Source: an uncultured Candidatus Saccharibacteria bacterium (GTDB taxonomy: Bacteria; Patescibacteriota; Minisyncoccia; Phycocordibacterales; UBA9973). Taken from it: a DNA stretch of 64,000 nucleotides. The position numbers and the translations under genes were made by a program. The stretch spans positions 91,388 through 155,387 of the forward strand of contig CAZYBS010000001.1 of the NCBI GenBank assembly GCA_964645245.1. The letters are read 5' to 3'. This document shows, one piece after another, positions 33,161-46,667 of this stretch; position 1 is the stretch's first letter, and the number at the start of each line of letters is the position of its first letter. The notes under the pieces were generated by a model, which was not told the origin of the DNA, searched no databases, and saw nothing but the letters and a program-made list of their open reading frames with translations.

Positions 33161-34063
33161 GTGTTCATTATTTTGCTTTTTTTCTCAAAAAACAAGTCAA
33201 TATTTAAAAATCCCCTCGACTTTGCTCGGGGCAAGCAAGAAAATAAACTAGAACAAGAAGGACTAACTTATGGCAACGAAATACTTGGTAATTTAGTAAA
33301 TAAAGACACCGATTTGGACGGAGTCCTGGATTGGGAAGAGTCCTTATGGGGAACGAATCCAAATAAAAAAGATACGAACGGTGACGGAGTTGGAGATGAT
33401 GTTGAAATAGAAAATTTAAAGCTCGCCCGACTGGACGACACCAGTCGTTCGGGCGGGAAGCTAACAGAGCAAGATAATGAAAACTTGACGGAAACAGATA
33501 AATTTTCCAGAGAATTTTTTGCAACCATTGCCACACTCAACCAGAGTGGGCAAATGGACCAAGCTACGGTAGATAAATTGAGCAGCTCGTTAGCGGAGCA
33601 TATACAAAATTCCCCTCCAAGAAAAGTGTTCTTACTTTCTGATGTGAAAATAATAAAAGACGACAGTGTCCAAGCTGTAAAAAATTACAACAACAATTTA
33701 AATAAAATTCATGATAAATATCAAACAGAGCGTACTGTTATTGATGTACTACAAGAATTCATAGCTGATGAAAATAATATTAACGCAGGTGTGTTATTGG
33801 AACTTGATCCAATAGTAGAACAAACACAAAATGTAATAAACGAACTGGTAAAAATGAGTGTGCCTCAATCCCTCTCGGTACTCCACTTAGATATGATAAA
33901 TGCCATGGAAAGATTAGTGGAAAATATCAGCGACATAAAGCTTTACGATACTGACGTCATCGTATCTTTAAGCGCCATCAGCCAGTATGACCAAAACACG
34001 ACCACACTGCAGTCAGCTATAAACAGTCTTGCGGGCGCAATAGGTAAAAAATTGAACAATTAA
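33161..34063 (+). CDS. Hypothetical membrane-anchored/secreted protein with Asp-rich calcium-binding-like repeats
   Basis: The listed ORF starts at GTG. An upstream in-frame signal-anchor (KHKRTLWIAFAVVFIILLFF) suggests the true start is earlier. DTDLDGVLDW…DTNGDGVGDD are TSP3/dockerin-like repeats. Confidence 0.45.
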   Translation: MFIILLFFSKNKSIFKNPLDFARGKQENKLEQEGLTYGNEILGNLVNKDTDLDGVLDWEESLWGTNPNKKDTNGDGVGDDVEIENLKLARLDDTSRSGGKLTEQDNENLTETDKFSREFFATIATLNQSGQMDQATVDKLSSSLAEHIQNSPPRKVFLLSDVKIIKDDSVQAVKNYNNNLNKIHDKYQTERTVIDVLQEFIADENNINAGVLLELDPIVEQTQNVINELVKMSVPQSLSVLHLDMINAMERLVENISDIKLYDTDVIVSLSAISQYDQNTTTLQSAINSLAGAIGKKLNN

Positions 34064-34081
34064 AAAGAAAATTGTATAATA

Positions 34082-36601
34082 ATGGGTAAAATGACAGCAA
34101 AAAATATCACAATAAAATTTATCTCTGTCTTGCTGATTATTTCTATAATAATGCCGGCTGTTTTATTTTCCAGACCCCAAAAAGCGGACGCCCAGTTCTC
34201 TGGCTGGGTTTCAGACTTTTTTGCCCCTTTTACAGCGGGAAGTACCGGAGTAAGCGCGGGGGTCAATACGACAGAAACAGCTTTTTCAATTAAAAATTTT
34301 GCAAAAGACATCGCCCAGCAGGTACTTATGGCTATTGCCAGGAGATCCCTGCAGGAAATAACTAAAAGCACTGTAAACTGGATAAATACCGGCAGGTGGG
34401 GTAACCCGCTTTTCTTAGAAAATCCAAATTCCTTCTTTAGGGATATAGCTAAATATGAAGTCAGAACCTTTGTGGACATGATCGGTTATGACCCGCTCCG
34501 ATATCCTTTTGGTAGAAATATTGCTTTAAGTACGATAGATACTTTTAAAAGAAAATTTGAAGATAATGCGCAATACAGCTTGAGTAAGGTTATCAATGAC
34601 CCTATTTTACTGCGGGATTACCGAAATAATTTTAATGTGGGAGGATGGAACGGTTTTCTGATAAATACCCAATACCCGCAAAATAATTATATAGGATTTC
34701 AGATGCTGGCGACCGAAGAACTGGCTAGAAGAACAACAGGACTAGCTCAAAATAAAGCGGAGGAAATAAATAAAAAACTACAGCAGGGAATGGGTTTCTT
34801 GTCTCCACAAATTTGCCGTTCTAATCCTAATTATCCCCCAGCCACAAATCCATACAATCCTCCAGTATTTAAAGAAACACCATGGGCTCCGCCGCCAGTG
34901 TCCGACCTTTCTTATGCTGTTGATGCAAATGGAAACTTCATATATGACGCAAATGGAAACCCTGTACCGGACCAATCACGAAGCAGGTATGATTTATATA
35001 AATCTAATTGGGAACGAACAAACCAAATCAACAGAGAGAATTTTAACAAAAAATATGATTGCCCGGAGGGTTTGATAAATACTACTCCCGGCGGCGTAGT
35101 GGCAAACCAAATAACAACTGCGATGAGTTCAGTAGTCCGCAATAAAGAATTGGCGGCAGCTATGGGTAATAGCATTTCGGCTATTTTGGATACTCTATTA
35201 AGTAAGTTTATGGGTGACGGACTAAGTGCTTTAACAAGCAAGGTGAACCCGAAACCGCCTGCGGATGACTGGAGTTATCTGGGCAATACTTTAGGCAGCC
35301 CAAGTAATAATTTTGGTAATGATTGGAGTGTCGGTCCGGATGAAGTAATTGTGCTATCTGACTTTAAGACAGCAATAGATGATGGAATAAATAATACTGA
35401 AACAGAACTTCAATTAATGGGTGATCTAACGCAATTACTCAGTGAAATTTGGCCGGAAGCGCGAAAACTTGATATATGCATACCTGGTCCGAATATAGGC
35501 TGGCAAGACAGAACAACGGAAGAGATGACTAGAAATAGCAAAGGACTTCAAGGAGAAGCAAATAAAGATAGCGGGGAAAAATCAGTTCAAGCCGGCTTGG
35601 TTCTCAAAGAATTAAAATTCGCCGTAAATTTATTTAAGGATTGGATAAATAATAAAATGATAACCGAGCTTCCAAATTCAGTCATTTATATGGACGCAGT
35701 GGATGAAATCCACGATTTGGCCCAACAATCAGACGAGTTGACCGACAAAAAACGAGCTAAAACTCAAGCGCTGGCAAGGTTAAAAGCTATAGAGACAGCT
35801 CTGAATAATACGGAAAGGTTTTCAACTCAACCAGCTCCAGGTTCTACTGGAGAAATAATTTTGATATCGTTAAAAAAACAATATAATGCCACCAGGAATG
35901 CGGTCTCAAACAGTTTTACCATAGGAGACACACAAAACGAGCTAGCTATCGCGAAAGGTAAAAAGGCCAATCTGGAAAAGCTGGTAACAGAATGCGTGGC
36001 AGAGAGAAAAGCCAAGGGCTGGACAAACCCAGGCTGGACAAGCCAAGACAGACAAATAAACCAAGTTCTGTTTCAGAACAGCACATATCTTGACAAAGGC
36101 ACAGAACAAAATATATTCTGCGATTTCCCAATTCAGGAAGGATATGACCATGAATCTTTTAGACACGCCAATGATAACGAAAATCAAAGAAAAACTCTCA
36201 AAGAAAGAGAAGCAGGCATGGGTCCACGAACTATTTATCAAACAGTACCATATGTAAATGCAAAAGATGTATTGAAGTGGAAAGGAAAGCTTGGATTATT
36301 TAGCCACTCTGCCAACATGCAGCTAAGTTGCAACATTATATACAAAGCCAATGTTCTGGACTATAAAGGCAACTTGCCTGGAACAACTAATATAGTAGAT
36401 CCTTATCAGGAACTGCCGGATGATACGGGCGGGGGAGATGGGGATGGCGGGGGTGGAGGCGGCGGAGATGGAGGTAAAACGCCAAATCCGCACCATGCAA
36501 ATCCTCCGGGAGTTTGCGCGAGTGATGAAGAGGTTGCCGCATTCCTAGAAAACAATCCCGGAGATGAGGAGAGATTACCCACATCTTTCCCATGCAATTA
36601 A
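34082..36601 (+). CDS. Large secreted/cell-surface hypothetical protein (839 aa) with a C-terminal Gly/Asp-rich tail
   Basis: N-terminal signal anchor. No known domain. The tail is GGGDGDGGGGGGGDGGKTPNP. First gene of the T4SS-like block. Confidence 0.5.
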   Translation: MGKMTAKNITIKFISVLLIISIIMPAVLFSRPQKADAQFSGWVSDFFAPFTAGSTGVSAGVNTTETAFSIKNFAKDIAQQVLMAIARRSLQEITKSTVNWINTGRWGNPLFLENPNSFFRDIAKYEVRTFVDMIGYDPLRYPFGRNIALSTIDTFKRKFEDNAQYSLSKVINDPILLRDYRNNFNVGGWNGFLINTQYPQNNYIGFQMLATEELARRTTGLAQNKAEEINKKLQQGMGFLSPQICRSNPNYPPATNPYNPPVFKETPWAPPPVSDLSYAVDANGNFIYDANGNPVPDQSRSRYDLYKSNWERTNQINRENFNKKYDCPEGLINTTPGGVVANQITTAMSSVVRNKELAAAMGNSISAILDTLLSKFMGDGLSALTSKVNPKPPADDWSYLGNTLGSPSNNFGNDWSVGPDEVIVLSDFKTAIDDGINNTETELQLMGDLTQLLSEIWPEARKLDICIPGPNIGWQDRTTEEMTRNSKGLQGEANKDSGEKSVQAGLVLKELKFAVNLFKDWINNKMITELPNSVIYMDAVDEIHDLAQQSDELTDKKRAKTQALARLKAIETALNNTERFSTQPAPGSTGEIILISLKKQYNATRNAVSNSFTIGDTQNELAIAKGKKANLEKLVTECVAERKAKGWTNPGWTSQDRQINQVLFQNSTYLDKGTEQNIFCDFPIQEGYDHESFRHANDNENQRKTLKEREAGMGPRTIYQTVPYVNAKDVLKWKGKLGLFSHSANMQLSCNIIYKANVLDYKGNLPGTTNIVDPYQELPDDTGGGDGDGGGGGGGDGGKTPNPHHANPPGVCASDEEVAAFLENNPGDEERLPTSFPCN

Positions 36602-39051
36602 ATATAGAAATGAAAAAGAAAGCTAAAAAAATAATTCCGTACTGCTTGATACTGATCGCGATATTCGCATTGGTTGGACTTTTTAACCCGGCGGGGGAGG
36701 CGCAGGCGCAGACACCGCCGCCAATAACCACAACTGGATGCTATAACGTAAACAATCAGATTCAGGGTACTCCCCCACTTAATCAAAGTCAATGTTTAGC
36801 GCTTGGAAGTTCGGTACGTTGGGTAGTGGTAGCAGGTACCCCGACTCCGGCATCACCTCGAGCGGCAGGGGAGGATTCAGAGCTTACAAAGAATATACCG
36901 GGCTGTGCGGTTATTACCGGTGATTTTGACGATTGTATAGTAAAAATTTCATACTATCTTTTTTATTCTCTTCCATCCTTTTTACTGGGCATAGTAGCAA
37001 GTATTTTTAATGTTGTACTGTCTATTTCATTAAGCAGCTCTCTTTACACTAAATCTCCCTTTATCCCTGAAGCATGGGCGGTTGTCCGAGATCTTTCCAA
37101 TATTTTTTTCATACTTATCCTGCTTTATATAGGAATAAAAATAATTTTAGGACTTGGCGGGTCTGAGGTCAAAAAGATGATAGCTCAAATTATAATCATG
37201 GCACTTTTAATCAACTTTTCTATGTTTTTCACAAAGATAGTTATTGATGCTTCCAATATCTTAGCATTGATTTTTTATAATAAAATTGATACTGAAGTGA
37301 AGATAACAACGGGCTCAACCAACATGACAACCACAGGGAGAGATTATCTGCCAATTACCAACCCGGCAATAACTGGTAACGTGGAAAAAGATATTGCGGG
37401 TGGATTGGCCTCCGCCTTCAAACCTGGTGAAATGCTAACTCCAACTTTCTTTGAAAAAGCCGCGACGAGAACTATAAGGGCACCGAGCTTGTCAGGTGCC
37501 GCCGCTTATACACTCGGCGGAGCGCTTGCAGGAAGTTTCATACCAGTCGTTGGCACGGCAATAGGAGCGGGGGTTGGAATTGCAGGCTATGCGGCTAGTA
37601 CTATTTTTGGTTTATGGACAAGTGAACCGGTGCCAAACTCTCTATTGTTTGGAATAATTGTTACAAGCGGAGCAATTATGTTTTTCGCGATTTATGCATT
37701 TTTTATATCAGGTATGAGCTTCATAGGCAGATTGATTGAACTTTGGATATTGATTATCGCTTCCCCTTTCGCTTTTATGTCTTCAACTGTACCATTACTA
37801 AGCGGTATACCTCACGTCGGCTGGAAAGAATGGTTAAAACGCCTTTTACAAGTTTCTTTTATGGCGCCAATTTTTATGTTCTTTTTATATTTGATATTTA
37901 AATTGGTATCAATAGATGTATTTGGAGATATTGCAGCTAGAGGCTTCGCAGACCAGGGTACCTTTGAGGCTATAGCACTGCTTTCTATAAAAGCTATAAT
38001 AATTTTAATACTTCTTCTAAAAGCAACTTCTTTTGCTAAAAAGTGGTCAGGCCAATTAGGGGAGATGATGATGAAAGGCGTGGCAATAGCAGGAGGAATT
38101 GCCGGTGGATTGGCAATAGGTGGAACAGCATCTGTGTTACAAGCAAGTGTGGGTAAGTATAGTGACCGGTTTGCCGAATCCACAACAGCAAAAAGATGGA
38201 TAAGAGAAGGCAGATTTGGTGCTGATACCTTACAGAAAATGACCAGCTATCTGGGAGGTGCAAGCTTTGATGCAAGAAAGGGAGTGGCTGGTGCAGCTTT
38301 AGGCGCTGTGTCTTCAGTGACTGGATTAGATCTCGGAGCAAAATCCCAATTATTATTAAAGAAGGATGGCGGATACAGGGAAGATAGGAAGAAGGCTGTA
38401 GAAAAGAGAATGCAGAGAGCACAAGAGCTTGAAGTTGGAGAAGACGAGGAGCTTACACGAAACTTACATGAACTAGAAGAACAGAAACAGGGGTTGCTTA
38501 GAGACGTTTCACATGATATTGAACAACTTGATAACAGAATTAAGACTTGGAGGGATAGGTCAAGAGATAGAGCTGAAAGAGTCAGGGTACTAAATGGCGA
38601 CCCTAATGCAACTCAAGCAGAAAGGGGTGCAGCGGCGGTAGAGGCAAGAGAAGCAGTTGATAATCTGAGAGAACTAAATACACATAGGAGGGCAATTAAA
38701 GACGGAGAGAATTTCACTCCGACAGCTGTTTCAGCCATAAACCTAGCAGACGTAGGAGTAGTGCAAGCTTACAGTACAAGGGCTAGGGTAGGTGGAGTAG
38801 CTACAGGAGCTTCAATAAATCAGTTGGAAGACACTTTTATCCCCCAGGTTCAGCATGAAATAGAAAGAGAAAACAGAGACAGAAAATGGGCTTACGCTAA
38901 CTACACCGAGATGGGAGGCGGAGGAATCAGAAACTTTTTCAGAGCAATAGGATTACAGCGAGCAGGAGACAACGAAGAATCTCGCAGAGAAGCCGCTCAT
39001 AAAATAATAATGGAGGCAAAGGTAGAGGATAAAGGAGGAGAGCATAGTTAA
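36592..39051 (+). CDS. VirB6/TrbL-like polytopic membrane protein with a long C-terminal coiled-coil extension
   Basis: Signal peptide, then ≥6 TM helices (…IFFILILLYIGIKIILGLGG…IIIMALLINFSMFFTKIVID…). Placement in the cluster with VirB4 and the PrgI-like protein. Confidence 0.5.
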   Translation: MQLNIEMKKKAKKIIPYCLILIAIFALVGLFNPAGEAQAQTPPPITTTGCYNVNNQIQGTPPLNQSQCLALGSSVRWVVVAGTPTPASPRAAGEDSELTKNIPGCAVITGDFDDCIVKISYYLFYSLPSFLLGIVASIFNVVLSISLSSSLYTKSPFIPEAWAVVRDLSNIFFILILLYIGIKIILGLGGSEVKKMIAQIIIMALLINFSMFFTKIVIDASNILALIFYNKIDTEVKITTGSTNMTTTGRDYLPITNPAITGNVEKDIAGGLASAFKPGEMLTPTFFEKAATRTIRAPSLSGAAAYTLGGALAGSFIPVVGTAIGAGVGIAGYAASTIFGLWTSEPVPNSLLFGIIVTSGAIMFFAIYAFFISGMSFIGRLIELWILIIASPFAFMSSTVPLLSGIPHVGWKEWLKRLLQVSFMAPIFMFFLYLIFKLVSIDVFGDIAARGFADQGTFEAIALLSIKAIIILILLLKATSFAKKWSGQLGEMMMKGVAIAGGIAGGLAIGGTASVLQASVGKYSDRFAESTTAKRWIREGRFGADTLQKMTSYLGGASFDARKGVAGAALGAVSSVTGLDLGAKSQLLLKKDGGYREDRKKAVEKRMQRAQELEVGEDEELTRNLHELEEQKQGLLRDVSHDIEQLDNRIKTWRDRSRDRAERVRVLNGDPNATQAERGAAAVEAREAVDNLRELNTHRRAIKDGENFTPTAVSAINLADVGVVQAYSTRARVGGVATGASINQLEDTFIPQVQHEIERENRDRKWAYANYTEMGGGGIRNFFRAIGLQRAGDNEESRREAAHKIIMEAKVEDKGGEHS

Positions 39052-39064
39052 AAAATAAAAAATC

Positions 39065-39568
39065 ATGACTGAAAAATTAAAACAAACAATTAAAGAGGAG
39101 GTGATGAAGTTGCCGAAAGAATTGCAGGAGGCTATCAACGCTTTTGATTGGGTGAAAGTTACAGAAGAACTGGGAGAAAAATATAAACTTTCAGAAAGCG
39201 AACTGAATGATTTTCAAGTAGAAACCTTGTTGGTTTTAGTAGGATTCACGGATCTGAATTTTTATGCAACTGCCATTGAAAATCGGGTTGGCATTACTAA
39301 AGATGACGCAAAAAAAATGGCTGACGAAGCCTTAGAAAAAATATTTACCCCAATAGCGGACAAAATTACCGAAAAAATTAAAGAAAAAACAAAAAACAAA
39401 AACCCGAGCCCGGAACAGACGCTTAATTTCATTCTTTCTGGCGGAGACTACTCGGCTTTTATGGAACAAAGAGAAAATCAAGCACAAGAAGCTGCGCCAA
39501 CTAATAAGCCTATAAATCCTCCATCTCTGGCCGACATAAAAGCTAAGTTATTAATAGACAATAAATAA
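39065..39568 (+). CDS. Small acidic hypothetical protein (tandem paralog A)
   Basis: Shares an N-terminal helical motif with the ORF at 39570 (…DW…LE.E.LL..GL…ELENRM…). Confidence 0.4.
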   Translation: MTEKLKQTIKEEVMKLPKELQEAINAFDWVKVTEELGEKYKLSESELNDFQVETLLVLVGFTDLNFYATAIENRVGITKDDAKKMADEALEKIFTPIADKITEKIKEKTKNKNPSPEQTLNFILSGGDYSAFMEQRENQAQEAAPTNKPINPPSLADIKAKLLIDNK

Positions 39569-39569
39569 A

Positions 39570-40217
39570 ATGCAAACACCAATAGATTTACTGCAAATAA
39601 AGATTGAAAAAGCCAGAGCAGCCTTGCCGGCCGAAACTCTCAATGCCATTGCCGCTGTTGATTGGAAGGCAGCCATTCTGGGGATGAGAGCTAAAAAAGG
39701 ATATACCTTTGAGCAATTGGGGGATTTAGAGCTGGAAACAGAATTATTGCTCTGCGGCCTTTTAGCTCCCGGTGGTTATCCGAAGGAATTGGAAAACAGA
39801 ATGAAAATCTCCAGAGCTCAAGCAAATGAATTGGTAAATGAAATGAATGACTTAGTTTTTAAAAAGATAAGAGAAGAATTAATCAAGAATACTGAAAGAA
39901 AAAAAATATTCGCAAATAAGATGACCCCCCCGCTCCGACCTGAGTCGAAGCACTCCCCCTTAGCAGGGGGAGAGGATAAAGCCTCCCTTGATAAGGGGAG
40001 GTTGGAGGGGTTTGGGGAGAAAAAGGAATCATTACCAATACCGGGGAAACTAGAACTTGAAACAGCCCATCCAATATTAGCGCAAAAATTATCCGGTTCT
40101 TTTCAAATTCCGATGGTAAAAACCGATCACTCCTTGAAAAATCTCCAGCCCTCTTCCACCCAGAACGGAACAATCCCAAAAAAGCCGGTCGATCCTTATA
40201 GGGAAATACCGGAATAA
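39570..40217 (+). CDS. Small hypothetical protein (tandem paralog B) with an in-frame GC-rich repeat insertion
   Basis: Paralogous N-terminus. The segment PPLRPESKHSPLAGGEDKASLDKGRLEGFGEKK is encoded by repeat DNA at 39935-40020. Confidence 0.4.
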   Translation: MQTPIDLLQIKIEKARAALPAETLNAIAAVDWKAAILGMRAKKGYTFEQLGDLELETELLLCGLLAPGGYPKELENRMKISRAQANELVNEMNDLVFKKIREELIKNTERKKIFANKMTPPLRPESKHSPLAGGEDKASLDKGRLEGFGEKKESLPIPGKLELETAHPILAQKLSGSFQIPMVKTDHSLKNLQPSSTQNGTIPKKPVDPYREIPE

Positions 40218-40221
40218 AATT

Positions 40222-40656
40222 ATGCAATTCAAAGTCCCACAATTTTTAGACATAGAAGACAAGATTTTTGGCCCATTTACTTTCAGGGAATTTGTTTATT
40301 TGGCCGGCGGGGCAGGTTTATGTTTTGTACTTTATAAAATACTAGGGCTTTATTTGGGCGCTATCCCAATTTTAGCCGCAGCGGGACTGGCGCTGGCGCT
40401 TACTTTCTACCGGCCAAATAATAAGCCTTTTATAAATATGATTGAGGCGGGATTCAACTATTTTGTAAAAGATAAACTTTATATCTGGAAAAGACGTAAG
40501 GCTAAAATGAGCAGTGACAGACAATTAGAAACTTCGGATGGAGATAGAAAGAGAGAAAACTTGGAGAACGAGGTCCGGCTGGGCGGAAATAAGTTGCGAG
40601 ACCTGGCTTGGAGTTTGGATGTGCTAGACTCAAATAAACACCAAAATGAGTTATAA
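40222..40656 (+). CDS. PrgI-like (VirB3-like) conjugation-system membrane protein
   Basis: MQFKVPQFLDIEDKIFGPFTFREFVYLAGGAGLCF… matches the PrgI-family N-terminus. Two TM helices. Confidence 0.45.
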   Translation: MQFKVPQFLDIEDKIFGPFTFREFVYLAGGAGLCFVLYKILGLYLGAIPILAAAGLALALTFYRPNNKPFINMIEAGFNYFVKDKLYIWKRRKAKMSSDRQLETSDGDRKRENLENEVRLGGNKLRDLAWSLDVLDSNKHQNEL

Positions 40657-40680
40657 AGTTTATAAAGTAAAAACAAAAAG

Positions 40681-41319
40681 ATGGCCCTAAACGCAAAAGC
40701 AACTCAAGAATTTGTACCAATCAAGGAGGTCCGCGACGGAATAATTATGTTGAAAGACGGCGGATTGCGGGCAATTGTGCTGGCCAATTCAGTCAACCTA
40801 TCCTTAAAATCAGACGACGAACAGAAAGCAACAATCCTTCAATTCCAGAGTTTTCTTAACACTTTGGACTTTGCTGTCCAAATATCGGTGCAATCAAGAA
40901 GACTGGATATCCGGCCTTACCTTTTACTTTTGGAAGAAAGAATAAAAGTGCAAAACGAGCCCTTGCTTAAGTTGCAAACAAAAGAATACGTAGAGTTCGT
41001 TAGAAATTTCACTGAGTCGGTGAGTATAATGACCAAAAGCTTTTTTGTTGTGGTTCCTTATACGCATACTGTTCTAAAATCAGATTCCGGAACATTTAAA
41101 CGCCTATTTGGAATAAGAAGTAAAGAAGAAGTAAAAATAGCCAAGCAAGAAGACTTTGAAGAAAAGAGGTCCCAACTGGAAGAAAGAGTGGGGGTAATAC
41201 AGCAAGGACTTGGCCGTTGCGGTATAAAATCAGCCCAATTAGGCACGGAAGAGATTGTGGAGGTATTTTATAAAGTTTTTAATCCCGGGGAAGTGGAAGG
41301 GAAAATTAAGCTGGAATAA
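40681..41319 (+). CDS. VirB4-like N-terminal domain, encoded as a separate ORF 5 nt upstream of the VirB4 ATPase body in another frame
   Basis: …VPIKEVRDGIIMLKDGGLRAIVLANSVNLSLKSDDEQKATILQFQSFLNTLDFAVQISVQSRRLDIRPYL resembles the extreme N-terminus of VirB4/TrbE proteins. Combined length 212+626 = 838 aa, about full VirB4 size. Confidence 0.45.
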   Translation: MALNAKATQEFVPIKEVRDGIIMLKDGGLRAIVLANSVNLSLKSDDEQKATILQFQSFLNTLDFAVQISVQSRRLDIRPYLLLLEERIKVQNEPLLKLQTKEYVEFVRNFTESVSIMTKSFFVVVPYTHTVLKSDSGTFKRLFGIRSKEEVKIAKQEDFEEKRSQLEERVGVIQQGLGRCGIKSAQLGTEEIVEVFYKVFNPGEVEGKIKLE

Positions 41320-41324
41320 AAATT

Positions 41325-43205
41325 ATGTCTATTTTTGACACATTATTTAGAAAAAAGAAAATGGGGGGTGAAGTTCACCCCGCCGATGGCGGGGCAAGTG
41401 CCTCAATTTTAGCGGTATTGCCAGAACAAATCTACGAATCAGCCAGTCTGGAACTGCAAGATGTCATCGCGCCCTCGGCGCTTAAAATTGAATCAAAATC
41501 CATAAACCTGGGCGATAAAATCGCGCGCACTTTTTTCATAATATCTTATCCGAGATTTTTGACCGACAATTGGTTTTCCCCAATAATCAACTTGGATAAA
41601 GTTTTTGATATTTCAATTTTTATCCACCCGATAGATACATCCTTAATGCTGCGGCAATTTCAGAAAAAAGTCGCTGAAGTGCAAAGCCAAATAAGCGTAC
41701 GCGAGAGCAAGGGGATGGTGCGCGACCCGATGCTCGATACCGCTTACCAAGACCTGGAAGGACTCCGCGACAATTTAATCCAGGCGCAGGAAAAAATGTT
41801 TGATGTCGGTATTTATATCACAATTTATGCCAACAATGACTTGGAACTTTTCAAACTTGAAAATGAAATAAAGTCAATGCTGGAGTCAAAATTAATATAC
41901 ATTAAACCGGCGCTTTTTCAGCAAGAAGACGGTTTTAAGAGCGTTATACCGATAAATACCGATTTACTAAATATCCACCAAAAATTAAATTCTGAACCGC
42001 TTTCCAGCGTTTTCCCTTTCATTTCTTTTGACTTAACTTCTGATAAAGGCGTACTCTACGGCGTCAACCGGCATAATTCCAGTTTGGTAATTTTTGACAG
42101 ATTTTCTCTGGAGAATTATAACTCGGTAACTTTTGCTAAAGCCGGCGCAGGTAAATCATATGCCACGAAACTGGAAGTTTTAAGGTCTTTGATGTTTGAT
42201 ATTGATGTCATTATAATAGACCCGGAACGGGAATATGAATTTTTGGCGGAAGCTGTGGGCGGACGATATTTCAGCATTTCCCTTTCCTCGGACCACCACA
42301 TGAACCCTTTTGATTTGCCAATGCCACGCGAAGACGAAACAGCCGAAGATGTCTTGCGTTCAAATATTATTAACCTCGTTGGACTTTTCCGATTAATGCT
42401 GGGAGGGCTTACGCCGGAAGAAGATTCAATGGTGGACCGCGCCATTTCCGAGACTTATGCCATCAAAGACATTACTCCAGAATCAGATTTTTCAAACATT
42501 GAACCTCCACTTCTTTCCGACTTTGAAATGGTGCTTTCGGGAATGGAAGGAAGCGATTCGGTCGTGCAGAGATTGGCGAAATACACCAAAGGTTCTTGGG
42601 CGACATTTTTAAACAGGCCTTCCAATGTGGACATTAATAAAAAGTTTGTGGTATTTTCCATCCGCGATATGGAAGACGAATTAAAGCCAGTCGCAATGTA
42701 TATCATTATGCATTATATCTGGAATGCAATACGCAAAAATTTGAAAAAGCGCTTATTGGTTGTGGATGAAGCTTGGTGGATGATGAAATCCGAAGATACT
42801 GCATCTTTTCTCTATTCTATCGCCAAGCGAGGCAGAAAATATTATCTGGGCCTTTCCACTATCACTCAAGATGCGGCTGACTTTTTGAATTCCCCCTACG
42901 GCGTACCGATAATCACCAACTCTTCCATCCAGCTTCTCCTAAAACAATCCCCCACCACTATTGATATCCTGCAAAAAACTTTTAATCTTACCGACGAAGA
43001 AAAATATCTTCTTTTAGAATCCAGTGTGGGTGAGGGCATCTTCTTCGCAGGATTAAAGCATGTCGCCATAAAAGTCATTGCTTCTTATACCGAAGACCAG
43101 ATTATCACCTCCGATCCTTCACAAATACTATCAAACAGAAAAGCCAAAGAAGAGCAGGAGGCAGAGCAAATACGGACACCAGATAGAGCTTTAGGCGCTA
43201 TCTAG
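41325..43205 (+). CDS. VirB4/TrbE/CagE-family type IV secretion ATPase (body)
   Basis: CagE_TrbE_VirB-like region (…LGDKIARTFFIISYPRFLTDNWFSPII…). Walker A FAKAGAGKSYATK, Walker B LLVVDEAWWMM. Confidence 0.8.
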   Translation: MSIFDTLFRKKKMGGEVHPADGGASASILAVLPEQIYESASLELQDVIAPSALKIESKSINLGDKIARTFFIISYPRFLTDNWFSPIINLDKVFDISIFIHPIDTSLMLRQFQKKVAEVQSQISVRESKGMVRDPMLDTAYQDLEGLRDNLIQAQEKMFDVGIYITIYANNDLELFKLENEIKSMLESKLIYIKPALFQQEDGFKSVIPINTDLLNIHQKLNSEPLSSVFPFISFDLTSDKGVLYGVNRHNSSLVIFDRFSLENYNSVTFAKAGAGKSYATKLEVLRSLMFDIDVIIIDPEREYEFLAEAVGGRYFSISLSSDHHMNPFDLPMPREDETAEDVLRSNIINLVGLFRLMLGGLTPEEDSMVDRAISETYAIKDITPESDFSNIEPPLLSDFEMVLSGMEGSDSVVQRLAKYTKGSWATFLNRPSNVDINKKFVVFSIRDMEDELKPVAMYIIMHYIWNAIRKNLKKRLLVVDEAWWMMKSEDTASFLYSIAKRGRKYYLGLSTITQDAADFLNSPYGVPIITNSSIQLLLKQSPTTIDILQKTFNLTDEEKYLLLESSVGEGIFFAGLKHVAIKVIASYTEDQIITSDPSQILSNRKAKEEQEAEQIRTPDRALGAI

Positions 43206-43224
43206 CGCCTAAAGCTCTATCTGG
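43169..43224. promoter_or_regulatory. Long palindrome CCAGATAGAGCTTTAGGCGCTATCTAGCGCCTAAAGCTCTATCTGG at the virB4 stop
   Basis: Shares CCAGATAG…GCGCTATCTGG arms with the palindrome at 17369-17394. Candidate terminator or operator. Confidence 0.5.
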
Positions 43225-43260
43225 ATAGTCAATTATCATATTTGGTTATATAATTGGGTT

Positions 43261-44229
43261 ATGAAATTAAAATTTTCATTATTAATTGCAGTACTCATGC
43301 TGTCTGGAACAGTAGCAAATGCCGCTTCATCCAGCAGTATCTTGGTTAACATCGTACCTGAAAGTCCAGCTCCGTATGAAGACATAGCTATTAGCTTGAA
43401 CAGTTATGCCAATAACCTAGACAGCGTTTTAATAACATGGTCTCTGGATGGTAAAAGTGTTCTATCTGGAATTGGGAAAAAATCGTTCTCCTTAAAAGCT
43501 CCGGCTGCCGGCTCTGAGACTATCGTCACCACTGTCATATCTTTGCCAGCTGGTAATATAGAAACAAGGATGATAATAAGGCCATCTGTCATGATACTAC
43601 TTTGGCAAGCAAATGATTCTTATGTTCCGCCATTTTATAAAGGCAAAGCCCTACCGACAGCCGACAGTGAGATAAAAATAATAGCTATGCCCGAAATAAG
43701 AATAACTTCTGGATTAGCTGATTCAAAAAATATGACTTACGCTTGGAAAAAAGATTATACCAACGACCAAGGGGCTTCGGGTTATGGCAAAAACTTTTTT
43801 CTTTACACCAATGATTATCTAGAAGATTCCAACAATATATCGGTGGTAGCATCAACGGTAGACCAGAAATATTCAAGTCAAGCAAGCATAACTATAGGAA
43901 CAAAAGAACCAAAAATATTATTTTACAAAAATGATAATAGTATCGGAACAATTTGGGAAAAAATACTTACTAATCCGCATAAAATACAAGGTGATGAGAC
44001 AGTCGTAGCAATACCTTATTTTATTTCACCGAAAGAAATACAAAATCCGAGGTTAGTATGGAACTGGTTCATTAATGATAATATAGTAAATATATTAGGT
44101 TTTAAAAAGAATTTTATGCCGCTTAAAGTGCAAGAGGGAACTTCTGGAACATCTAAATTAAAATTAGAAATTGAAAACAAGGATAAAATTTTTCAGACAG
44201 CCAGTAAAGAAATTAATATAGAATTTTAA
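43261..44229 (+). CDS. Secreted hypothetical protein (signal peptide, beta-rich)
   Basis: MKLKFSLLIAVLMLSGTVANA signal peptide. No known domain. Confidence 0.45.
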   Translation: MKLKFSLLIAVLMLSGTVANAASSSSILVNIVPESPAPYEDIAISLNSYANNLDSVLITWSLDGKSVLSGIGKKSFSLKAPAAGSETIVTTVISLPAGNIETRMIIRPSVMILLWQANDSYVPPFYKGKALPTADSEIKIIAMPEIRITSGLADSKNMTYAWKKDYTNDQGASGYGKNFFLYTNDYLEDSNNISVVASTVDQKYSSQASITIGTKEPKILFYKNDNSIGTIWEKILTNPHKIQGDETVVAIPYFISPKEIQNPRLVWNWFINDNIVNILGFKKNFMPLKVQEGTSGTSKLKLEIENKDKIFQTASKEINIEF

Positions 44230-44230
44230 A

Positions 44231-45277
44231 ATGAAAAAAATATTAATTTATATTTTAATACTCATTATACTGGTCGGAGTAAGCCTGCCAATCTATGCGC
44301 AAACACAAACGCCCTGCCAGACGGATTATGTCCGAGTAGGTGGTAGGTGTGTTCCTGCAAGCAGTTATATTCTTTTAGCTCCACTGCCTTGCGCAGAAGG
44401 TACTCCTGGATGCATTGACGGAAAATTGAAGACTTTTAATCCCGAGCAAAAAGATAGTGCCGGAAAAAGTACTGCTCTAGGCACATATTTAAACCTTATG
44501 ATAAAAATAATTATCGGTCTGGCGGCGGTTTTGTCTGTGATAATGATTGTTGTGGGCGGGCTGGAGTATATGACCAGCGAACTGATATCCAGCAAAGAAG
44601 AAGGTAAAAAAAGAATTCTAGGCGCGATTTTTGGGCTTCTTTTGGCCCTAGGCGCTTATGCGCTTTTAAATACAATAAACCCCGACCTGCTTAGTACCGA
44701 TATAAAAATAGATCAGGCAACGATTACGGTAACGTTAGATGAAGCAAATTTTGCAAAAACAGAACAAACTGTAGCTACTGCCGGAACAAGATATGCACTA
44801 AGTGGAGCTCCAAGTCCTGGCGTTTCCGATTTTATAAGAAATCGTCTTAGCCAAGGACAACCATTAAGAACTATTGTTGTAGACACTAGTACACGCAGAG
44901 CATACTTTTATGTTGGTCCAGCCGGAAACTGGAATACATTTGTAGCTGTTCCGGTAAATCTTGGATTGAATGGCATAGCGGAAATAGGACAAGCACAAGC
45001 AGGTGATGGCAAAACTCCAAAAGGAACCACAACTTTAGGTTCAGTTGCACTAGCAAGCAACGGAAATGCTGTTACCGTTGCAGGGGGGAGATATAATGTT
45101 GGTGCTGCTTTTGTTAATGTAGGTGCAACAATAAATGGGACAGATAGAGGAATTGGTTTTCATGGATCAGCTAACAATGCCCTAGGAACAACTAACGGTT
45201 GTATTAGAATGACTAATGATGATTTAGCCGCTTTAACGCCATACATGAGAGCAGGGGTAACGGTACTTATAAAATAA
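44231..45277 (+). CDS. Fusion protein: VirB2/TrbC-pilin-like hydrophobic hairpin plus a C-terminal L,D-transpeptidase (YkuD) catalytic domain
   Basis: Signal peptide. Middle segment LNLMIKIIIGLAAVLSVIMIVVGGLEYM…ILGAIFGLLLALGAYALL is pilin-like (two TM helices). C-terminal …GFHGSANNALGTTNGCIRMTNDDLAALTPYMRAGVTVLI is the YkuD His/Cys motif. Confidence 0.55.
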   Translation: MKKILIYILILIILVGVSLPIYAQTQTPCQTDYVRVGGRCVPASSYILLAPLPCAEGTPGCIDGKLKTFNPEQKDSAGKSTALGTYLNLMIKIIIGLAAVLSVIMIVVGGLEYMTSELISSKEEGKKRILGAIFGLLLALGAYALLNTINPDLLSTDIKIDQATITVTLDEANFAKTEQTVATAGTRYALSGAPSPGVSDFIRNRLSQGQPLRTIVVDTSTRRAYFYVGPAGNWNTFVAVPVNLGLNGIAEIGQAQAGDGKTPKGTTTLGSVALASNGNAVTVAGGRYNVGAAFVNVGATINGTDRGIGFHGSANNALGTTNGCIRMTNDDLAALTPYMRAGVTVLIK

Positions 45278-45278
45278 G

Positions 45279-46667
45279 ATGTCAAGAAGAAATCTTATAC
45301 TTTTAATAATAATCTTGGTTGCCGTGGTAATTACGGTTTTTGGATTTTTATATTTACGCCAAGGAAAAATTGTGCCGGGAGAAGAAGGTCCAGGCACCAA
45401 TTTTATTTCACGATTCAACCCATTTGGAAGTAAAACGACTCCTCCAGTTGTGGCGCCTCCAATTGACGTTTCAGGATACCAGCCCGATTCTGGAGAAGAA
45501 ACACCAAAACTGAAACTAATGAAAGTTTCCAGTATGCCTATAGCAGGGTTTGCGGTGTTTATAAAAGAAAGATTAAAAGAGGTGCCGATAGCTCCCCTCC
45601 TTGTGGAGGAGGGGGTTGGGGGTGGTGATAGTTCTACAACACCACCTCGCCCTTCGGGCACTCCTCCTCGGAAAGGAGGAGAGAAAGCCAAGCCTACCCC
45701 ACCACTGACTGAATTTGTGCCAGCTTTAAGATATGCAGAGCGAGCGACGGGAAATATCTATCAAACTTTCACGGATAAAATAGAAGAAAGAAAATTCTCA
45801 GGAACGACAATACCCAAAGTATATGAGGCATATTTTGGCAATCGCGCAGAGTCTGTAATTATGCGATATTTAAAAGCTGATGACAAAACCATCGAAACTT
45901 TTGTCGGTACTCTTCCGAAAGAATACTTGGGGGGAGACACAACAAAAAACAATGAAATAAAGGGGTCTTTTTTACCCAATAATATTAAAGATATAAGTCT
46001 TTCGCCGGATGCTTCAAAAATATTCTACTTGTTTAGCAGTGGAGTTAATTTGGGAAACAATATAGTAGGTACAACTGCGAGCTTGTTGGATAATAAAAAA
46101 GTTCAAGTTTTTGATTCCCCTTTCACCGAATGGCTATCATTTTGGCCAACTAGTAAAATGATTACCCTTTCCACTAAACCTTCCAGTAATGTCCCCGGAT
46201 ATATGTACATGCTCGACCTGGATAAGAAAAATCTAACTAAAATTTTAGGCGATATAAATGGACTCACTACTCTGACAAGCCCTAACGGGAAATTAGTTCT
46301 TTACGGTGACAACAGTTTATCACTGTATATCTATCATACCGATAACAGAAATTCTGATTTATTGGGGGTAAAGACTTTGCCTGAAAAATGCGTTTGGGGT
46401 AAAGTAAGTGATGTTATTTATTGTGCTGTGCCAAAATTAATTGACCTAGGCGCATATCCGGATACCTGGTATCAAGGAGAAGTATCTTTTAGTGATCAGT
46501 TTTGGAAAATAGACATCAAAAGCGGAAATGCAACTTTAATAATGGACCCAGTTACAGTTACCGCCGAAGAAATTGACGGTATTAAACTCGATCTAGACGA
46601 AAGTGAAAATTACTTATTTTTTGTAAATAAAAAAGATTCTTTTCTCTGGAAGTTGGATTTGAAATAA
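45279..46667 (+). CDS. Membrane-anchored hypothetical protein with a beta-propeller-like C-terminal region and an in-frame repeat insertion
   Basis: N-terminal TM. Repeat-encoded LLVEEGVGGGDSSTTPPRPSGTPPRKGGEKAKP. The C-terminal half resembles a TolB-like propeller. Confidence 0.45.
   Translation: MSRRNLILLIIILVAVVITVFGFLYLRQGKIVPGEEGPGTNFISRFNPFGSKTTPPVVAPPIDVSGYQPDSGEETPKLKLMKVSSMPIAGFAVFIKERLKEVPIAPLLVEEGVGGGDSSTTPPRPSGTPPRKGGEKAKPTPPLTEFVPALRYAERATGNIYQTFTDKIEERKFSGTTIPKVYEAYFGNRAESVIMRYLKADDKTIETFVGTLPKEYLGGDTTKNNEIKGSFLPNNIKDISLSPDASKIFYLFSSGVNLGNNIVGTTASLLDNKKVQVFDSPFTEWLSFWPTSKMITLSTKPSSNVPGYMYMLDLDKKNLTKILGDINGLTTLTSPNGKLVLYGDNSLSLYIYHTDNRNSDLLGVKTLPEKCVWGKVSDVIYCAVPKLIDLGAYPDTWYQGEVSFSDQFWKIDIKSGNATLIMDPVTVTAEEIDGIKLDLDESENYLFFVNKKDSFLWKLDLK

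What the first reader, a model, noticed from the sequence alone, without database searches (positions are those of the whole stretch)
33161..46667. Compact T4SS/conjugation-like envelope machine with atypical components (VirB6-like giant, PrgI-like, split VirB4, pilin-LDT fusion)
Nine co-directional genes are packed with 0-60-nt gaps.
- The block begins with two large secreted proteins (300 and 839 aa), the latter with a Gly/Asp tail.
- An 819-aa VirB6/TrbL-like polytopic membrane protein with a ~350-aa coiled-coil tail.
- Two tandem paralogous small proteins.
- A PrgI/VirB3-like protein.
- VirB4 in two pieces.
- A secreted beta-rich protein.
- A pilin-like protein fused to an L,D-transpeptidase domain.
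- A TolB-like membrane-anchored protein.

There is no VirD4 coupling protein, no relaxase, no VirB8/9/10/11 homolog and no integrase nearby. So this is not a standard conjugative element.

In a reduced genome that also has a PilB ATPase (57348-59048), such a machine may serve DNA uptake, host attachment or effector delivery. The component set here is partly undescribed, notably the LDT fusion and the FtsK-gamma-like neighbour.
Basis: partly seen in the sequence, partly recalled or inferred. Interest (0 to 1): 0.6.

Follow-up and report, generated by a model that had tools for sequence, protein, structure and literature searches.

The report
Patescibacteria chromosomal type IV secretion system
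This is the origin-proximal, non-conjugative type IV secretion system already described for ultra-small Patescibacteria (CPR), here in a Nomurabacteria-like genome; the one feature I found no description of is that its pilin carries a cell-wall enzyme whose class changes from species to species.

Summary
Window 33161-46667 has 11 (not 9) co-directional ORFs with gaps of -10 to +55 nt.

- **Components with family matches:** PrgI/VirB3, a TrsD-like VirB4 N-domain protein, a VirB4 ATPase, and a VirB2-like pilin fused to a YkuD L,D-transpeptidase.
- **VirB6-like protein:** supported only weakly, by fold (top PDB matches are TrwI/VirB6).
- **"TolB-like" protein:** a membrane-anchored beta-propeller; no specific TolB relationship shown.
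- **Location:** between ksgA and jag-yidC-yidD-rnpA-rpmH / dnaA-dnaN. The window holds no relaxase or coupling protein.
- **Conservation:** the same gene order recurs across the species-level Paceibacteria genomes retrieved wherever the flank allows. VirB4 is more conserved than DnaA in all 52 scorable genomes.

The addition is the pilin gene. At this fixed position the pilin module is conserved, but its C-terminal domain is swapped among NlpC/P60, VanY/M15, YkuD, SLT, amidase and unknown domains. The distribution shows no phylogenetic signal. I found no paper describing this.

The function (own-wall remodelling versus host-wall attack) is inferred, not shown.

The parts
33161..34063 (+). p300: probably a single-pass membrane-anchored protein with Asp-rich, thrombospondin-type-3-like calcium-binding repeats (DTDLDGVLDWEE..., aa ~48-85) and a helical C-terminal part. 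The true start is probably upstream (ATA 33104 or ATT 33107).
   Evidence: ORF. Partial match to the CglD repeat region, NF033765, E=3e-7. The profile hits the Ca-binding region of a biofilm surface protein, 7c7r, E=8e-4. Ortholog N-termini carry a TM helix. Start-codon problem. Present at the same position in 27 of the 52 fully scored loci; flanks limit detection.
34082..36601 (+). p839: large exported protein (N-terminal hydrophobic signal, aa 4-33) with conserved Cys pairs and a Gly/Asp-rich tail. Function unknown.
   Evidence: No Pfam, NCBIfam, PHROG or PDB match. Of 34 orthologs, 4 carry T2SS-T3SS_pil_N and 1 carries DUF4141. Syntenic but fast-evolving: median 36% identity over 44% of its length.
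36592..39051 (+). p819: 'extended VirB6'-like polytopic membrane protein. It has a signal/TM segment at aa 10-37, a Cys-rich ectodomain, about 8 hydrophobic helices (aa ~123-515, 36958-38136), and a ~300-aa charged helical tail (38137-39048).
   Evidence: Hydropathy. No Pfam hit in any of 55 orthologs and no PDB sequence hit. AF2 model of aa 90-560: pLDDT 83.6, pTM 0.77. Foldseek PDB ranks 1-4 are R388 T4SS entries; the three stalk-complex chains among them (ranks 1 and 3, and five more of the top 23) are TrwI/VirB6 (best E=0.087, prob 0.91, TM 0.34). Exact GenBank match G01um101424_118.
39065..39568 (+). p167: small soluble acidic protein, paralog of p215. Function unknown.
   Evidence: The two genes give overlapping tblastn hits in related loci.
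39570..40217 (+). p215: paralog of p167 with a Pro/Ser-rich tail.
   Evidence: BLASTP 26% identity over 124 aa, E=1e-3.
40222..40656 (+). PrgI/VirB3-family membrane protein (two adjacent hydrophobic helices, aa 24-63).
   Evidence: PF12666, E=4.4e-8, 34 bits against a cut-off of 27. Hydropathy. Median 58% identity in relatives.
40681..41319 (+). TrsD-like protein: the VirB4 N-terminal domain encoded as a separate polypeptide.
   Evidence: NF041427 TrsD, E=2.5e-6, over 8-200 of the protein and 15-199/201 of the model. Also matches the N-terminal positions of the VirB4 models NF045975, NF045971 and TIGR00929. A separate complete ORF in 75 loci, median 214 aa. Median 72% identity.
41325..43205 (+). 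VirB4 ATPase of the monoderm CD1110/MPF_FATA type, lacking its N-terminal domain. Walker A is AGAGKS and Walker B is LLVVDEAW.
   Evidence: NF045971, E=2e-108, above cut-off. PF19044, E=4e-25. PDB 4ag5, E=5e-39 and TrwK, E=1e-5. 74-93% identical in 80 species-level genomes. GenBank TSC77979.1 is annotated VirB4-like.
43261..44229 (+). p322: exported protein made of three homologous ~100-aa beta-rich (Ig-like) repeats.
   Evidence: Signal-like N-terminus. Repeat homology: cross-HMM E from 4e-10 to 1e-4 and hhalign probability 87-96%. Weak Ig_3, PKD_3 and BiPBP_C hits in some orthologs. No PDB sequence hit.
44231..45277 (+). VirB2-like pilin fused to an L,D-transpeptidase. It has a signal peptide (~aa 1-23), a short Cys-rich segment, a pilin module (aa 45-169, 44363-44737: two TM helices joined by a Lys/Arg-rich loop, ending ...LNTINPDLL), then a YkuD domain (aa 213-347, 44867-45271) with the FHGS...NGCIRM active-site motif.
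   Evidence: Pfam YkuD 47.7 bits (cut-off 23.4), TrbC E=4e-5, T4SS_pilin E=7e-5. Pilin-module HMM E=4e-45, and it is the only such module in the window. LDT match to 4lzh, with the His and Cys motif positions aligned. GenBank gene call identical, TSC77977.1.
45279..46667 (+). p462: N-terminal TM helix (aa 3-26), a disordered Pro/Gly-rich linker, and a beta-propeller ectodomain (aa ~80-460).
   Evidence: AF2 pLDDT 84.7. Foldseek best matches are propellers: RACK1/WD40, oligogalacturonate lyase, DPP4, E from 5e-11. The profile reaches TolB only at E=0.13. Some homologs carry PG_binding_1. Median 44% identity with full coverage in 52 loci.

Best explanation
**What it is.** This block is the chromosomal type IV secretion system characteristic of Patescibacteria (CPR), here in a Nomurabacteria/Paceibacteria genome (Parcubacteria group bacterium Gr01-1014_24). 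It descends from the monoderm (MPF_FATA) conjugation machinery but is fixed in the chromosome next to the replication-origin gene set. The locus lacks a relaxase and a coupling protein.

**Shown.**
- A VirB4 ATPase, with its N-terminal domain split off as a TrsD-like protein.
- A PrgI/VirB3 membrane partner.
- A VirB2-like pilin.
- A large polytopic protein whose best, though weak, structural match is VirB6.
- Four further exported or membrane-anchored proteins and two small soluble paralogs, all conserved in order across related genomes.

**Inferred mechanism.**
- VirB4/TrsD hexamers docked on PrgI and the VirB6-like platform extract the pilin module from the membrane. They then present or polymerise it at the cell surface, as in other VirB2-containing T4SSs.
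- The pilin has a cleaved signal peptide and a positively charged loop between its two helices. Its C-terminal domain should therefore face outward.
- In this lineage that domain is a peptidoglycan-active enzyme, here an L,D-transpeptidase with an intact active-site motif. The machine thus carries its own wall-remodelling activity, the job done by separate VirB1/PrgK-type enzymes elsewhere, positioned at the assembly site.
- The beta-propeller, Ig-repeat, Ca-binding and large secreted proteins would form or decorate the wall-spanning part.

**Most likely biological role.** The interaction of the epibiont with its host cell (attachment, or transfer of protein or other material), as shown genetically for the homologous system of Southlakia epibionticum. 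Plasmid conjugation is unlikely.
For: **Family matches.**
- VirB4, PrgI, TrsD, pilin and YkuD.
- VirB6-like fold.

**Genomic context.** ksgA lies upstream. jag, yidC, yidD, rnpA, rpmH, dnaA and dnaN lie downstream. GC content matches the flanks. Among the window's large ORFs (all of at least 250 aa, plus several shorter), none is a relaxase, T4CP or phage/ICE-type integrase.

**Conservation.**
- The order UvrD-KsgA-p300-p839-p819-(p167/p215)-PrgI-TrsD-VirB4-p322-pilinX-p462-Jag-YidC-DnaA-DnaN recurs in related genomes wherever the flank allows.
- Median identity: VirB4 84%, DnaA 79%, DnaN 69%. VirB4 exceeds DnaA in 52 of 52 loci.

**Published description of the same system.**
- PMC12102498.
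- Its Table S3 lists KKS04572.1, the representative of the 90%-identity cluster that holds this VirB4.
- PMC10633639: the homologous system in Southlakia is essential by Tn-seq.
- The review PMC12857230.

**Outward orientation and pilin-specific conservation.** The module is strongly conserved (GGIxYMTSE...GK..I..A..GL.LALGAY.ILNTINP.LL), far beyond what a plain TM anchor needs.

**Peptidoglycan enzymes on the pilin.** Found in at least 33 of 73 syntenic orthologs and about 60 of 140 database relatives.
Against: - VirB6 membership is not established. No Pfam TrbL/VirB6 hit in any of 55 orthologs. The fold match is weak: E=0.087, TM 0.23-0.34.
- No VirB8-like component was identified.
- The pilin Pfam scores of the window copy are just below the gathering cut-offs.
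- Nothing here shows that a pilus is built, that the fused enzyme is active, or what is transported.
- An L,D-transpeptidase is not a lytic enzyme, so a simple hole-cutting VirB1 role does not fit this allele.
- A coupling protein or relaxase could lie elsewhere in the genome. A related genome has T4CP hits far from virB4.
Confidence: 0.85

Rival explanations
1. The fused peptidoglycan enzymes are host-directed weapons or tools. The pilin module carries them out of the epibiont on a T4SS pilus or surface structure. The enzyme then opens or rewires the host cell wall at the contact site. Frequent domain swapping would track different host wall chemistries or host resistance.
For: - The enzyme class is distributed as if at random over the species tree. 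With 51 taxa and 21 head types, at least 39 changes are needed, against 39.9 +/- 1.5 for shuffled labels. The ATPase next door is meanwhile more conserved than DnaA.
- The classes found are NlpC/P60, M15/VanY, YkuD, SLT and amidase. From my own knowledge, these are also used as antibacterial T6SS and Xanthomonas T4SS effectors, including the LDT-like Tlde1.
- Many orthologs add variable N-terminal TIG/Ig/CBM-type domains on the same outward-facing side.
- In Southlakia, the lysozyme and peptidase genes next to virB4 are essential for growth on the host.
Against: - No variable immunity-like gene follows the enzyme. p462 starts within a few nucleotides.
- The enzyme is tethered to the producer's own membrane.
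- Gram-positive T4SSs need their own wall hydrolases of the same classes.
- No host is known for this organism.
Confidence: 0.3
2. The block is an integrated conjugative element, or its remnant, that still moves DNA between cells.
For: VirB4, TrsD, PrgI and the pilin are conjugation-derived parts. The best NCBIfam models are from ICE and conjugative systems. A few Patescibacteria do carry relaxases.
Against: - No relaxase, T4CP or element-type integrase among the large ORFs scanned across the 64 kb window.
- Housekeeping flanks and the same position next to oriC in the related genomes retrieved.
- No compositional break.
- The published survey finds relaxases near virB4 in only 15 genomes.
Confidence: 0.03
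3. The machine imports DNA or nucleotides (a ComB- or Ced-like uptake T4SS) to feed an organism that cannot make its own nucleotides.
For: - A weak partial match of VirB4 to CedB, NF041017, E=5e-8.
- The reduced genome has PilB.
- In the ABY1 class, T4SS genes co-localise with competence genes.
Against: In Southlakia, comEC deletion abolishes competence without affecting viability, while the T4SS is essential. Its essential role there is therefore not DNA uptake through ComEC. There are no DNA-binding or competence genes in the block.
Confidence: 0.08

Closest known systems
Patescibacteria T4SS (Southlakia epibionticum SEML1_0005-0019; the 'Patescibacteria clade' of VirB4 in Quinonero-Coronel et al. 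2025)
   Same: - VirB4 + TrsD-like + PrgI + large VirB6-like protein with a hydrophilic tail + PF18895-type pilins.
- Exported Ig-like protein and cell-wall enzymes just downstream of virB4.
- No relaxase or T4CP in the cluster.
- Chromosomal position near dnaA/dnaN/ksgA/rnpA/rpmH.

   Different: - Southlakia has six separate small pilin genes and separate lysozyme and peptidase genes. Here a single pilin gene is fused to the enzyme.
- Here no NTF2/VirB8-like protein was found.
- p300, p839, p462 and the p167/p215 pair were not matched to described components.

Monoderm conjugative T4SSs of the MPF_FATA class (pGO1 trs, pCF10 prg, CTn2/CD1110)
   Same: - The VirB4 best model is the CD1110 family.
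- The TrsD + TrsE-type split of VirB4 is as in pGO1.
- PrgI is the VirB3 equivalent.
- No outer-membrane core proteins.

   Different: - Those systems have a relaxase, a coupling protein and surface adhesins, and they lack VirB2 pilins.
- They sit on plasmids or ICEs.

VirB1/PrgK/TraG-type T4SS-associated peptidoglycan hydrolases
   Same: Membrane-anchored, extracytoplasmic SLT, NlpC/P60-CHAP and metallopeptidase domains encoded inside the T4SS operon (enzyme classes).
   Different: - Here the anchor is a conserved VirB2-like pilin module rather than a simple TM helix.
- The catalytic class changes between closely related species.
- One allele, this window's, is a transpeptidase rather than a hydrolase.

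Extended VirB6 proteins (e.g. Rickettsiales VirB6 paralogs)
   Same: A polytopic core of five or more helices plus a large C-terminal hydrophilic domain.
   Different: No sequence-level relationship is detectable. The fold support is weak.
Polymorphic toxin / effector systems with swappable C-terminal domains, and the LDT-like T6SS effector Tlde1 (recalled from my own knowledge, not tested here)
   Same: A conserved N-terminal delivery module with a rapidly exchanged C-terminal enzymatic domain. The cell-wall-targeting enzyme classes include YkuD-like.
   Different: - No adjacent immunity gene.
- The delivery module is a T4SS pilin.
- No toxicity has been shown.

Membership tests
Type IV secretion system, Patescibacteria/MPF_FATA-derived | VirB4-family ATPase | tested here: met
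   NF045971, E=2e-108, above the curated cut-off. PF19044, E=4e-25. PDB 4ag5, E=5e-39. Walker A and B motifs are in the sequence.
Type IV secretion system, Patescibacteria/MPF_FATA-derived | VirB3/PrgI membrane partner next to VirB4 | tested here: met
   PF12666, 34 bits against a cut-off of 27. Two hydrophobic helices.
Type IV secretion system, Patescibacteria/MPF_FATA-derived | TrsD (separate VirB4 N-terminal domain protein) adjacent to virB4 | tested here: met
   Full-length alignment to NF041427, E=2.5e-6 (below the curated cut-off). Also matches the N-terminal positions of three VirB4 models. VirB4 itself starts at model position 183. The separate ORF is conserved in 75 loci.
Type IV secretion system, Patescibacteria/MPF_FATA-derived | VirB6-type polytopic platform protein | tested here: inconclusive
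Type IV secretion system, Patescibacteria/MPF_FATA-derived | VirB2-like (PF18895/PF04956) pilin near virB4 | tested here: met
   The window copy scores E=4e-5 and 7e-5, just under the gathering scores. 62 of 73 syntenic orthologs and 125 of 140 relatives hit PF18895 at E<=1e-3 (best E=2e-14). Architecture is signal peptide plus two helices.
Type IV secretion system, Patescibacteria/MPF_FATA-derived | VirB8-like (NTF2-fold) component | not tested
   No sequence hit in any cluster protein. The published survey also rarely finds VirB8 outside class ABY1.
Type IV secretion system, Patescibacteria/MPF_FATA-derived | Chromosomal, oriC-proximal location (dnaA, dnaN, ksgA, rnpA, rpmH nearby), without a relaxase | tested here: met
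   compared with the description.
Conjugative element (ICE/plasmid T4SS) | Relaxase and type IV coupling protein associated with the T4SS | tested here: not met
   None was found among the window's large ORFs scanned with Pfam, which covered all ORFs of at least 250 aa plus several shorter ones. The rest of the genome could not be searched.
Conjugative element (ICE/plasmid T4SS) | Element boundaries: integrase, variable insertion site, compositional break | tested here: not met
   The only recombinase is a Xer-type one at 11121-12071. The position is the same in the related genomes retrieved. GC is 0.40-0.42, like the flanks.
YkuD L,D-transpeptidase | YkuD domain with a catalytic His and a Cys in the (S/T)xGC(I/V)R motif | tested here: met
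   PF03734, 47.7 bits against a cut-off of 23.4. FHGS...TNGCIRM aligns to HGT...SHGCVRL of 4lzh. Enzyme activity was not tested.
TolB | TolB-specific N-terminal alpha/beta domain plus six-bladed propeller, with sequence relationship to TolB | tested here: not met
   The propeller fold is confirmed (pLDDT 84.7). The best structural matches are RACK1/WD40, oligogalacturonate lyase and DPP4. The N-terminus is a TM helix plus a disordered linker. The profile reaches TolB only at E=0.13.

The most novel reading that the evidence does not exclude
In Paceibacteria, the T4SS pilin is a modular carrier. A conserved VirB2-like module, recognised by a very conserved VirB4/VirB6-like machine, exports a cassette-like cell-wall enzyme that changes quickly between species. 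The classes seen are NlpC/P60, M15/VanY, YkuD, SLT, amidase and new Cys-rich domains. The enzyme would act on the host bacterium's wall at the contact site. That would be a pilus- or pilin-borne polymorphic effector system and a candidate determinant of host range in CPR epibionts. What is observed is the fusion and the turnover. The host-directed role is not excluded and not shown.
Probability: 0.3. Interest if true: 0.75.

Novelty: new member of a known kind. Interest (0 to 1): 0.4.

Why it matters
[quoted passage not shown] What it transports is unknown.
- **What this locus adds.** It shows the Paceibacteria version in full: an 11-gene block conserved in order across the related genomes examined. 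Its ATPase evolves more slowly than DnaA. Several envelope proteins in the block have no known relatives.
- **The practical lead.** The single pilin gene at a fixed position carries a peptidoglycan enzyme whose class changes between close relatives. This gives a concrete biochemical handle: express the heads and test them on sacculi. It also gives a testable hypothesis linking the machine to cell-wall remodelling at the epibiont-host interface. Most of these organisms are uncultivated.
- **The bound.** If the heads only serve assembly through the producer's own wall, the finding is an ordinary lineage-specific fusion of two known T4SS functions.

Tried and rejected
**Searches that returned nothing or were unavailable**
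- A profile search with the pilin module in the 5.8-billion-protein collection returned only short proteins (263 aa or less). It was useless for surveying fusions. The exhaustive representative search plus Pfam replaced it.
- PDB sequence and profile searches gave only chance-level hits for p819, p839, p300, p322, p462 and the unknown Cys-rich head.
- PHROGs gave nothing for the cluster.
- The promoter/terminator scan was near shuffle expectation and says nothing about operon structure.
- Rfam found only tRNAs.
- The look-up of encoding contigs did not find the VirB4 gene by exact match, although the protein is in the collection.
- The stored supplement of PMC12102498 is truncated. I could not confirm that this exact genome was in their table; only its 90%-cluster representative is there.

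**Ideas considered and rejected**
- *Recent pseudogene split of VirB4.* Rejected because the split is conserved.
- *ICE.* Rejected; see the rival explanations.
- *The FtsK-gamma protein as a coupling-protein substitute.* Rejected. It has no P-loop domain and is separated from the block by UvrD and KsgA.


Full report
**1. What is in the sequence**

Window 33161-46667 holds eleven ORFs on the + strand, with gaps of -10 to +55 nt.

GC content is 0.40-0.42, the same as the flanks.

Upstream lie a UvrD-type helicase with an intein (28788-32138) and KsgA (32180-33091).

Downstream, convergent with the block, are jag, yidC, yidD, rnpA and rpmH. Then come dnaA (48725) and dnaN (50213).

Pfam scans covered every ORF of at least 250 aa in the window and several shorter ones. 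The rest of the window is housekeeping: PNPase, CCA-adding enzyme, PBP1, RuvB, PolA, PilB, a Xer-type recombinase and an aminoacyl-tRNA synthetase. No relaxase, coupling protein or element-type integrase was found.

The sequence is from the MAG 'Parcubacteria group bacterium Gr01-1014_24'. There are exact protein matches to G01um101424_110, _111, _114 and _118, and to TSC77979.1.

**2. Component by component**

- **40222-40656: PrgI/VirB3.** PF12666, above the Pfam cut-off.
- **41325-43205: VirB4 of the monoderm CD1110 type.**
  - NF045971, E=2e-108, above cut-off.
  - PDB 4ag5, E=5e-39.
  - It aligns only from model position 183 onward.
- **40681-41319: the missing VirB4 N-terminal domain.**
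  - It matches TrsD over its full length and the first 120-170 positions of three VirB4 models.
  - The split is ancient. The TrsD-like protein is a separate complete ORF, median 214 aa, in 75 related loci.
  - The same split is known from pGO1 TrsD/TrsE, and TrsD is the most abundant T4SS component reported in Patescibacteria.
- **44231-45277: pilin fused to an L,D-transpeptidase.**
  - Signal peptide, then a VirB2/TrbC-type two-helix pilin module, then a YkuD domain.
  - The His and Cys motif positions align to the solved L,D-transpeptidase 4lzh.
- **36592-39051: the 819-aa polytopic protein.**
  - It has about eight hydrophobic helices and a ~300-aa charged tail.
  - Neither it nor any of 55 orthologs hits Pfam TrbL/VirB6 or any PDB sequence.
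  - A confident AlphaFold model of aa 90-560 (pLDDT 83.6) has R388 T4SS chains as its top four PDB matches. Seven of the top 23 are TrwI/VirB6 stalk-complex chains.
  - The scores are weak: E=0.087, TM 0.23-0.37.
  - I call it VirB6-like with moderate confidence. This is about the level of evidence used for the Southlakia protein SEML1_0013, TM 0.50 to a TrbL/VirB6 model.
- **45279-46667: a TM helix, a disordered linker and a beta-propeller.**
  - Model pLDDT 84.7.
  - The best matches are generic propellers, not TolB. The TolB sequence signal is E=0.13.
  - Some homologs carry a peptidoglycan-binding domain.
- **43261-44229: an exported protein of three homologous ~100-aa repeats**, with weak Ig/PKD-type hits in orthologs.
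- **33161-34063: Asp-rich calcium-binding repeats.**
  - Supported.
  - Orthologs have an N-terminal TM helix. In the window that helix lies in frame upstream of the called GTG but without a canonical start codon.
- **34082-36601: a large exported protein with no informative relatives**.
- **39065-39568 and 39570-40217: soluble paralogs**.

**3. Conservation**

A scan of one genome per species found at least 556 confirmed relatives of this VirB4. The best 80 are 74-93% identical and come from Nomurabacteria, Paceibacteria, Kaiserbacteria, Wolfebacteria and related MAGs.

Wherever the flank suffices, the gene order is the same: UvrD, KsgA, p300, p839, p819, (p167/p215), PrgI, TrsD, VirB4, p322, pilin-X, p462, Jag(-), YidC(-), DnaA, DnaN.

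Median identity to the window proteins in 52 fully scorable loci:

| Protein | Median identity |
|---|---|
| VirB4 | 84% |
| DnaA | 79% |
| TrsD | 72% |
| DnaN | 69% |
| YidC | 62% |
| PrgI | 58% |
| p462 | 44% |
| p322 | 35% |
| p819 | 32% |

VirB4 exceeds DnaA in 52 of 52 loci. One caveat applies: the loci were selected by VirB4 similarity.

This is a core chromosomal machine under strong constraint. It is not a mobile element.

**4. Comparison with the literature**

The system is published.

- Wang et al. 2023 (PMC10633639) found an essential T4SS with an unusual pilin array, and no coupling protein or relaxase, in Southlakia epibionticum.
- Quinonero-Coronel et al. 2025 (PMC12102498) surveyed Patescibacteria. 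They described a monophyletic VirB4 clade related to MPF_FATA, with TrsD, PrgI/VirB3, VirB6 and VirB2-like pilins near virB4.
- The same paper reports relaxases in only 109 cases, and proximity to dnaA, dnaN, ksgA, rnpA and rpmH in Paceibacteria and other classes.
- Their Table S3 lists KKS04572.1, the representative of the 90%-identity cluster that contains this window's VirB4.
- A 2025 review places these systems in the T4SS superfamily. It notes extended VirB6 proteins.

**5. What I did not find described: the pilin carries a swappable cell-wall enzyme**

*The pattern at the syntenic position*
- In 73 related loci, the ORF between p322 and p462 always contains the pilin module, detected with an HMM built from the module.
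- The module is strongly conserved, down to motifs such as YxLLAPLP and GGIxYMTSE...LNTINPxLL.
- The rest of the protein is not conserved.
- 68 of 73 have a C-terminal extension of at least 80 aa.

*Head families*

The extensions fall into at least ten unrelated sequence families plus singletons. Labels below come from Pfam scans of representatives.

| C-terminal head | Loci |
|---|---|
| NlpC/P60 | 12 |
| Unknown Cys-rich domain with invariant Glu, His and Asp residues | 12 |
| VanY | 8 |
| YkuD (this window, L007, L017, L031, L036, L058) | 6 |
| Peptidase_M15_4 | 3 |
| SLT-type families | 3 + 2 + 2 |
| Two unlabelled families | 4 + 4 |
| Amidase_2 | 1 |

- 42 orthologs also have variable N-terminal extensions, some with TIG/Ig or CBM domains.

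*Independent check*
- I searched 1.84 billion cluster representatives with the window's pilin module.
- It returned 15,016 relatives at E<=1e-3.
- Of the top 140, Pfam finds VanY in 19, NlpC/P60 in 16, YkuD in 9, SLT-type domains in 10, M15_4 in 4 and Amidase_5 in 3.

*Turnover*
- I built a neighbour-joining tree from VirB4 + TrsD + DnaA + DnaN + YidC.
- The 21 head types in 51 taxa need at least 39 changes.
- Shuffled labels give 39.9 +/- 1.5, so head type carries no detectable phylogenetic signal at this sampling.
- Caveats: the tree is a simple NJ tree, and some 'types' may be remote homologs of one another.

*Other points*
- No variable small ORF follows the gene.
- The window contains only this one pilin module.

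*Literature search*
- Full-text searches found no paper describing the fusion.
- The 2025 paper's main text mentions no transpeptidase, YkuD or NlpC.
- One row of its Table S3 lists a 'VirB2' hit, two genes after virB4, whose protein cluster has best Pfam PF00877. The fusion is therefore implicit in their data.

**6. Mechanism**

*Shown*
- The parts list.
- Its conservation.
- The intact active-site motif of the transpeptidase.

*Inferred from what is established for VirB-type systems*
- VirB4 on VirB3 and VirB6 extracts VirB2 from the membrane.
- A signal peptide and a Lys/Arg-rich inter-helix loop put both ends of the pilin, and hence the enzyme, outside the membrane.

*Two readings of the enzyme's role*
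1. It supplies the VirB1/PrgK-type wall remodelling that a monoderm T4SS needs. I give this about 0.45.
2. It acts on the host's wall. I give this about 0.3.

*How the evidence splits*
- The turnover, the extra binding-type domains and the non-lytic YkuD allele favour the second reading.
- The membrane tether, the lack of immunity genes and the precedent of operon-encoded hydrolases favour the first.
- C-terminal processing of VirB2-family pilins is known for RP4 TrbC (my own knowledge). Release of the head on maturation is therefore also possible.

None of this can be decided from sequence.

**7. Verdict**

- The system is a further member of a published kind.
- The swappable enzyme on the pilin and the four unassigned conserved envelope proteins are the parts worth following up.

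Noticed in passing
window 28788-32138 (+): The UvrD/PcrA-type helicase (1116 aa) has Hint/intein-splicing matches between its two helicase halves. It appears to be an intein-containing helicase immediately upstream of ksgA.
   Followed up: no
window ~20000-24000 versus 48725: GC skew changes sign, and cumulative skew reaches its minimum, at about 22-24 kb, next to a tRNA cluster. dnaA is about 25 kb away at 48725. The whole T4SS block lies between them on the + strand. The skew-defined origin and dnaA may not coincide.
   Followed up: no
window 24932-28766 (+): Three highly charged, purine-rich-coded proteins (447, 411 and 400 aa; AT skew up to 0.33) with no family matches. The exception is an FtsK-gamma winged helix at aa 98-141 of the middle one, which also has a C-terminal TM helix. 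UvrD and KsgA separate them from the T4SS block. The related loci were too short to test co-occurrence.
   Followed up: partly
window 33101-33163: The conserved N-terminal TM anchor of p300 is in frame upstream of the called GTG start, but no ATG, GTG or TTG precedes it. The TTG start of the ortholog in L005 is TGG here. ATA 33104 or ATT 33107 may serve as the start, or this copy lacks its anchor.
   Followed up: partly
window 45279-46667: GenBank annotates this gene as 431 aa (G01um101424_110), which drops the conserved N-terminal TM helix present in orthologs. Some homologs (509-528 aa) instead carry a PG_binding_1 domain at the N-terminus.
   Followed up: partly
window 41325-43205 versus 48725-51310, and loci L001-L080: VirB4 is more conserved than DnaA and DnaN in every one of 52 related genomes (median 84% against 79% and 69%). 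This is unusual for a secretion ATPase. The loci were chosen by VirB4 similarity, which may inflate the difference.
   Followed up: yes
L066:13882-15303; L008, L063, L067, L070: Some relatives have two pilin modules in one ORF (L066) or a second pilin gene near the first. The single fused pilin of this window is therefore not universal.
   Followed up: no
C-terminal domains of L012, L014, L022, L023, L027, L034, L038, L041, L042, L046, L064, L072 (alignment A12; L064 is in the family but was left out of the alignment): A ~150-aa Cys-rich head domain with no Pfam or PDB match. It has invariant Glu, His, His, Asp and H-x-H residues (first-sequence positions E102, H106, H115, D123, H171, H173), reminiscent of LAS-type zinc peptidases. 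This may be an undescribed peptidoglycan peptidase family.
   Followed up: partly
window 2806-3597, 13622-14572, 15796-16584: Three TrmB-family regulators lie within 14 kb of a very small genome's origin region.
   Followed up: no
Table S3 of PMC12102498, genome GCA_000996985.1: A close relative (its VirB4 is in the same 90% cluster) has T4CP-type hits, plus extra VirB2 and PrgF hits, far from virB4. Absence of these from the window does not show absence from this genome.
   Followed up: no
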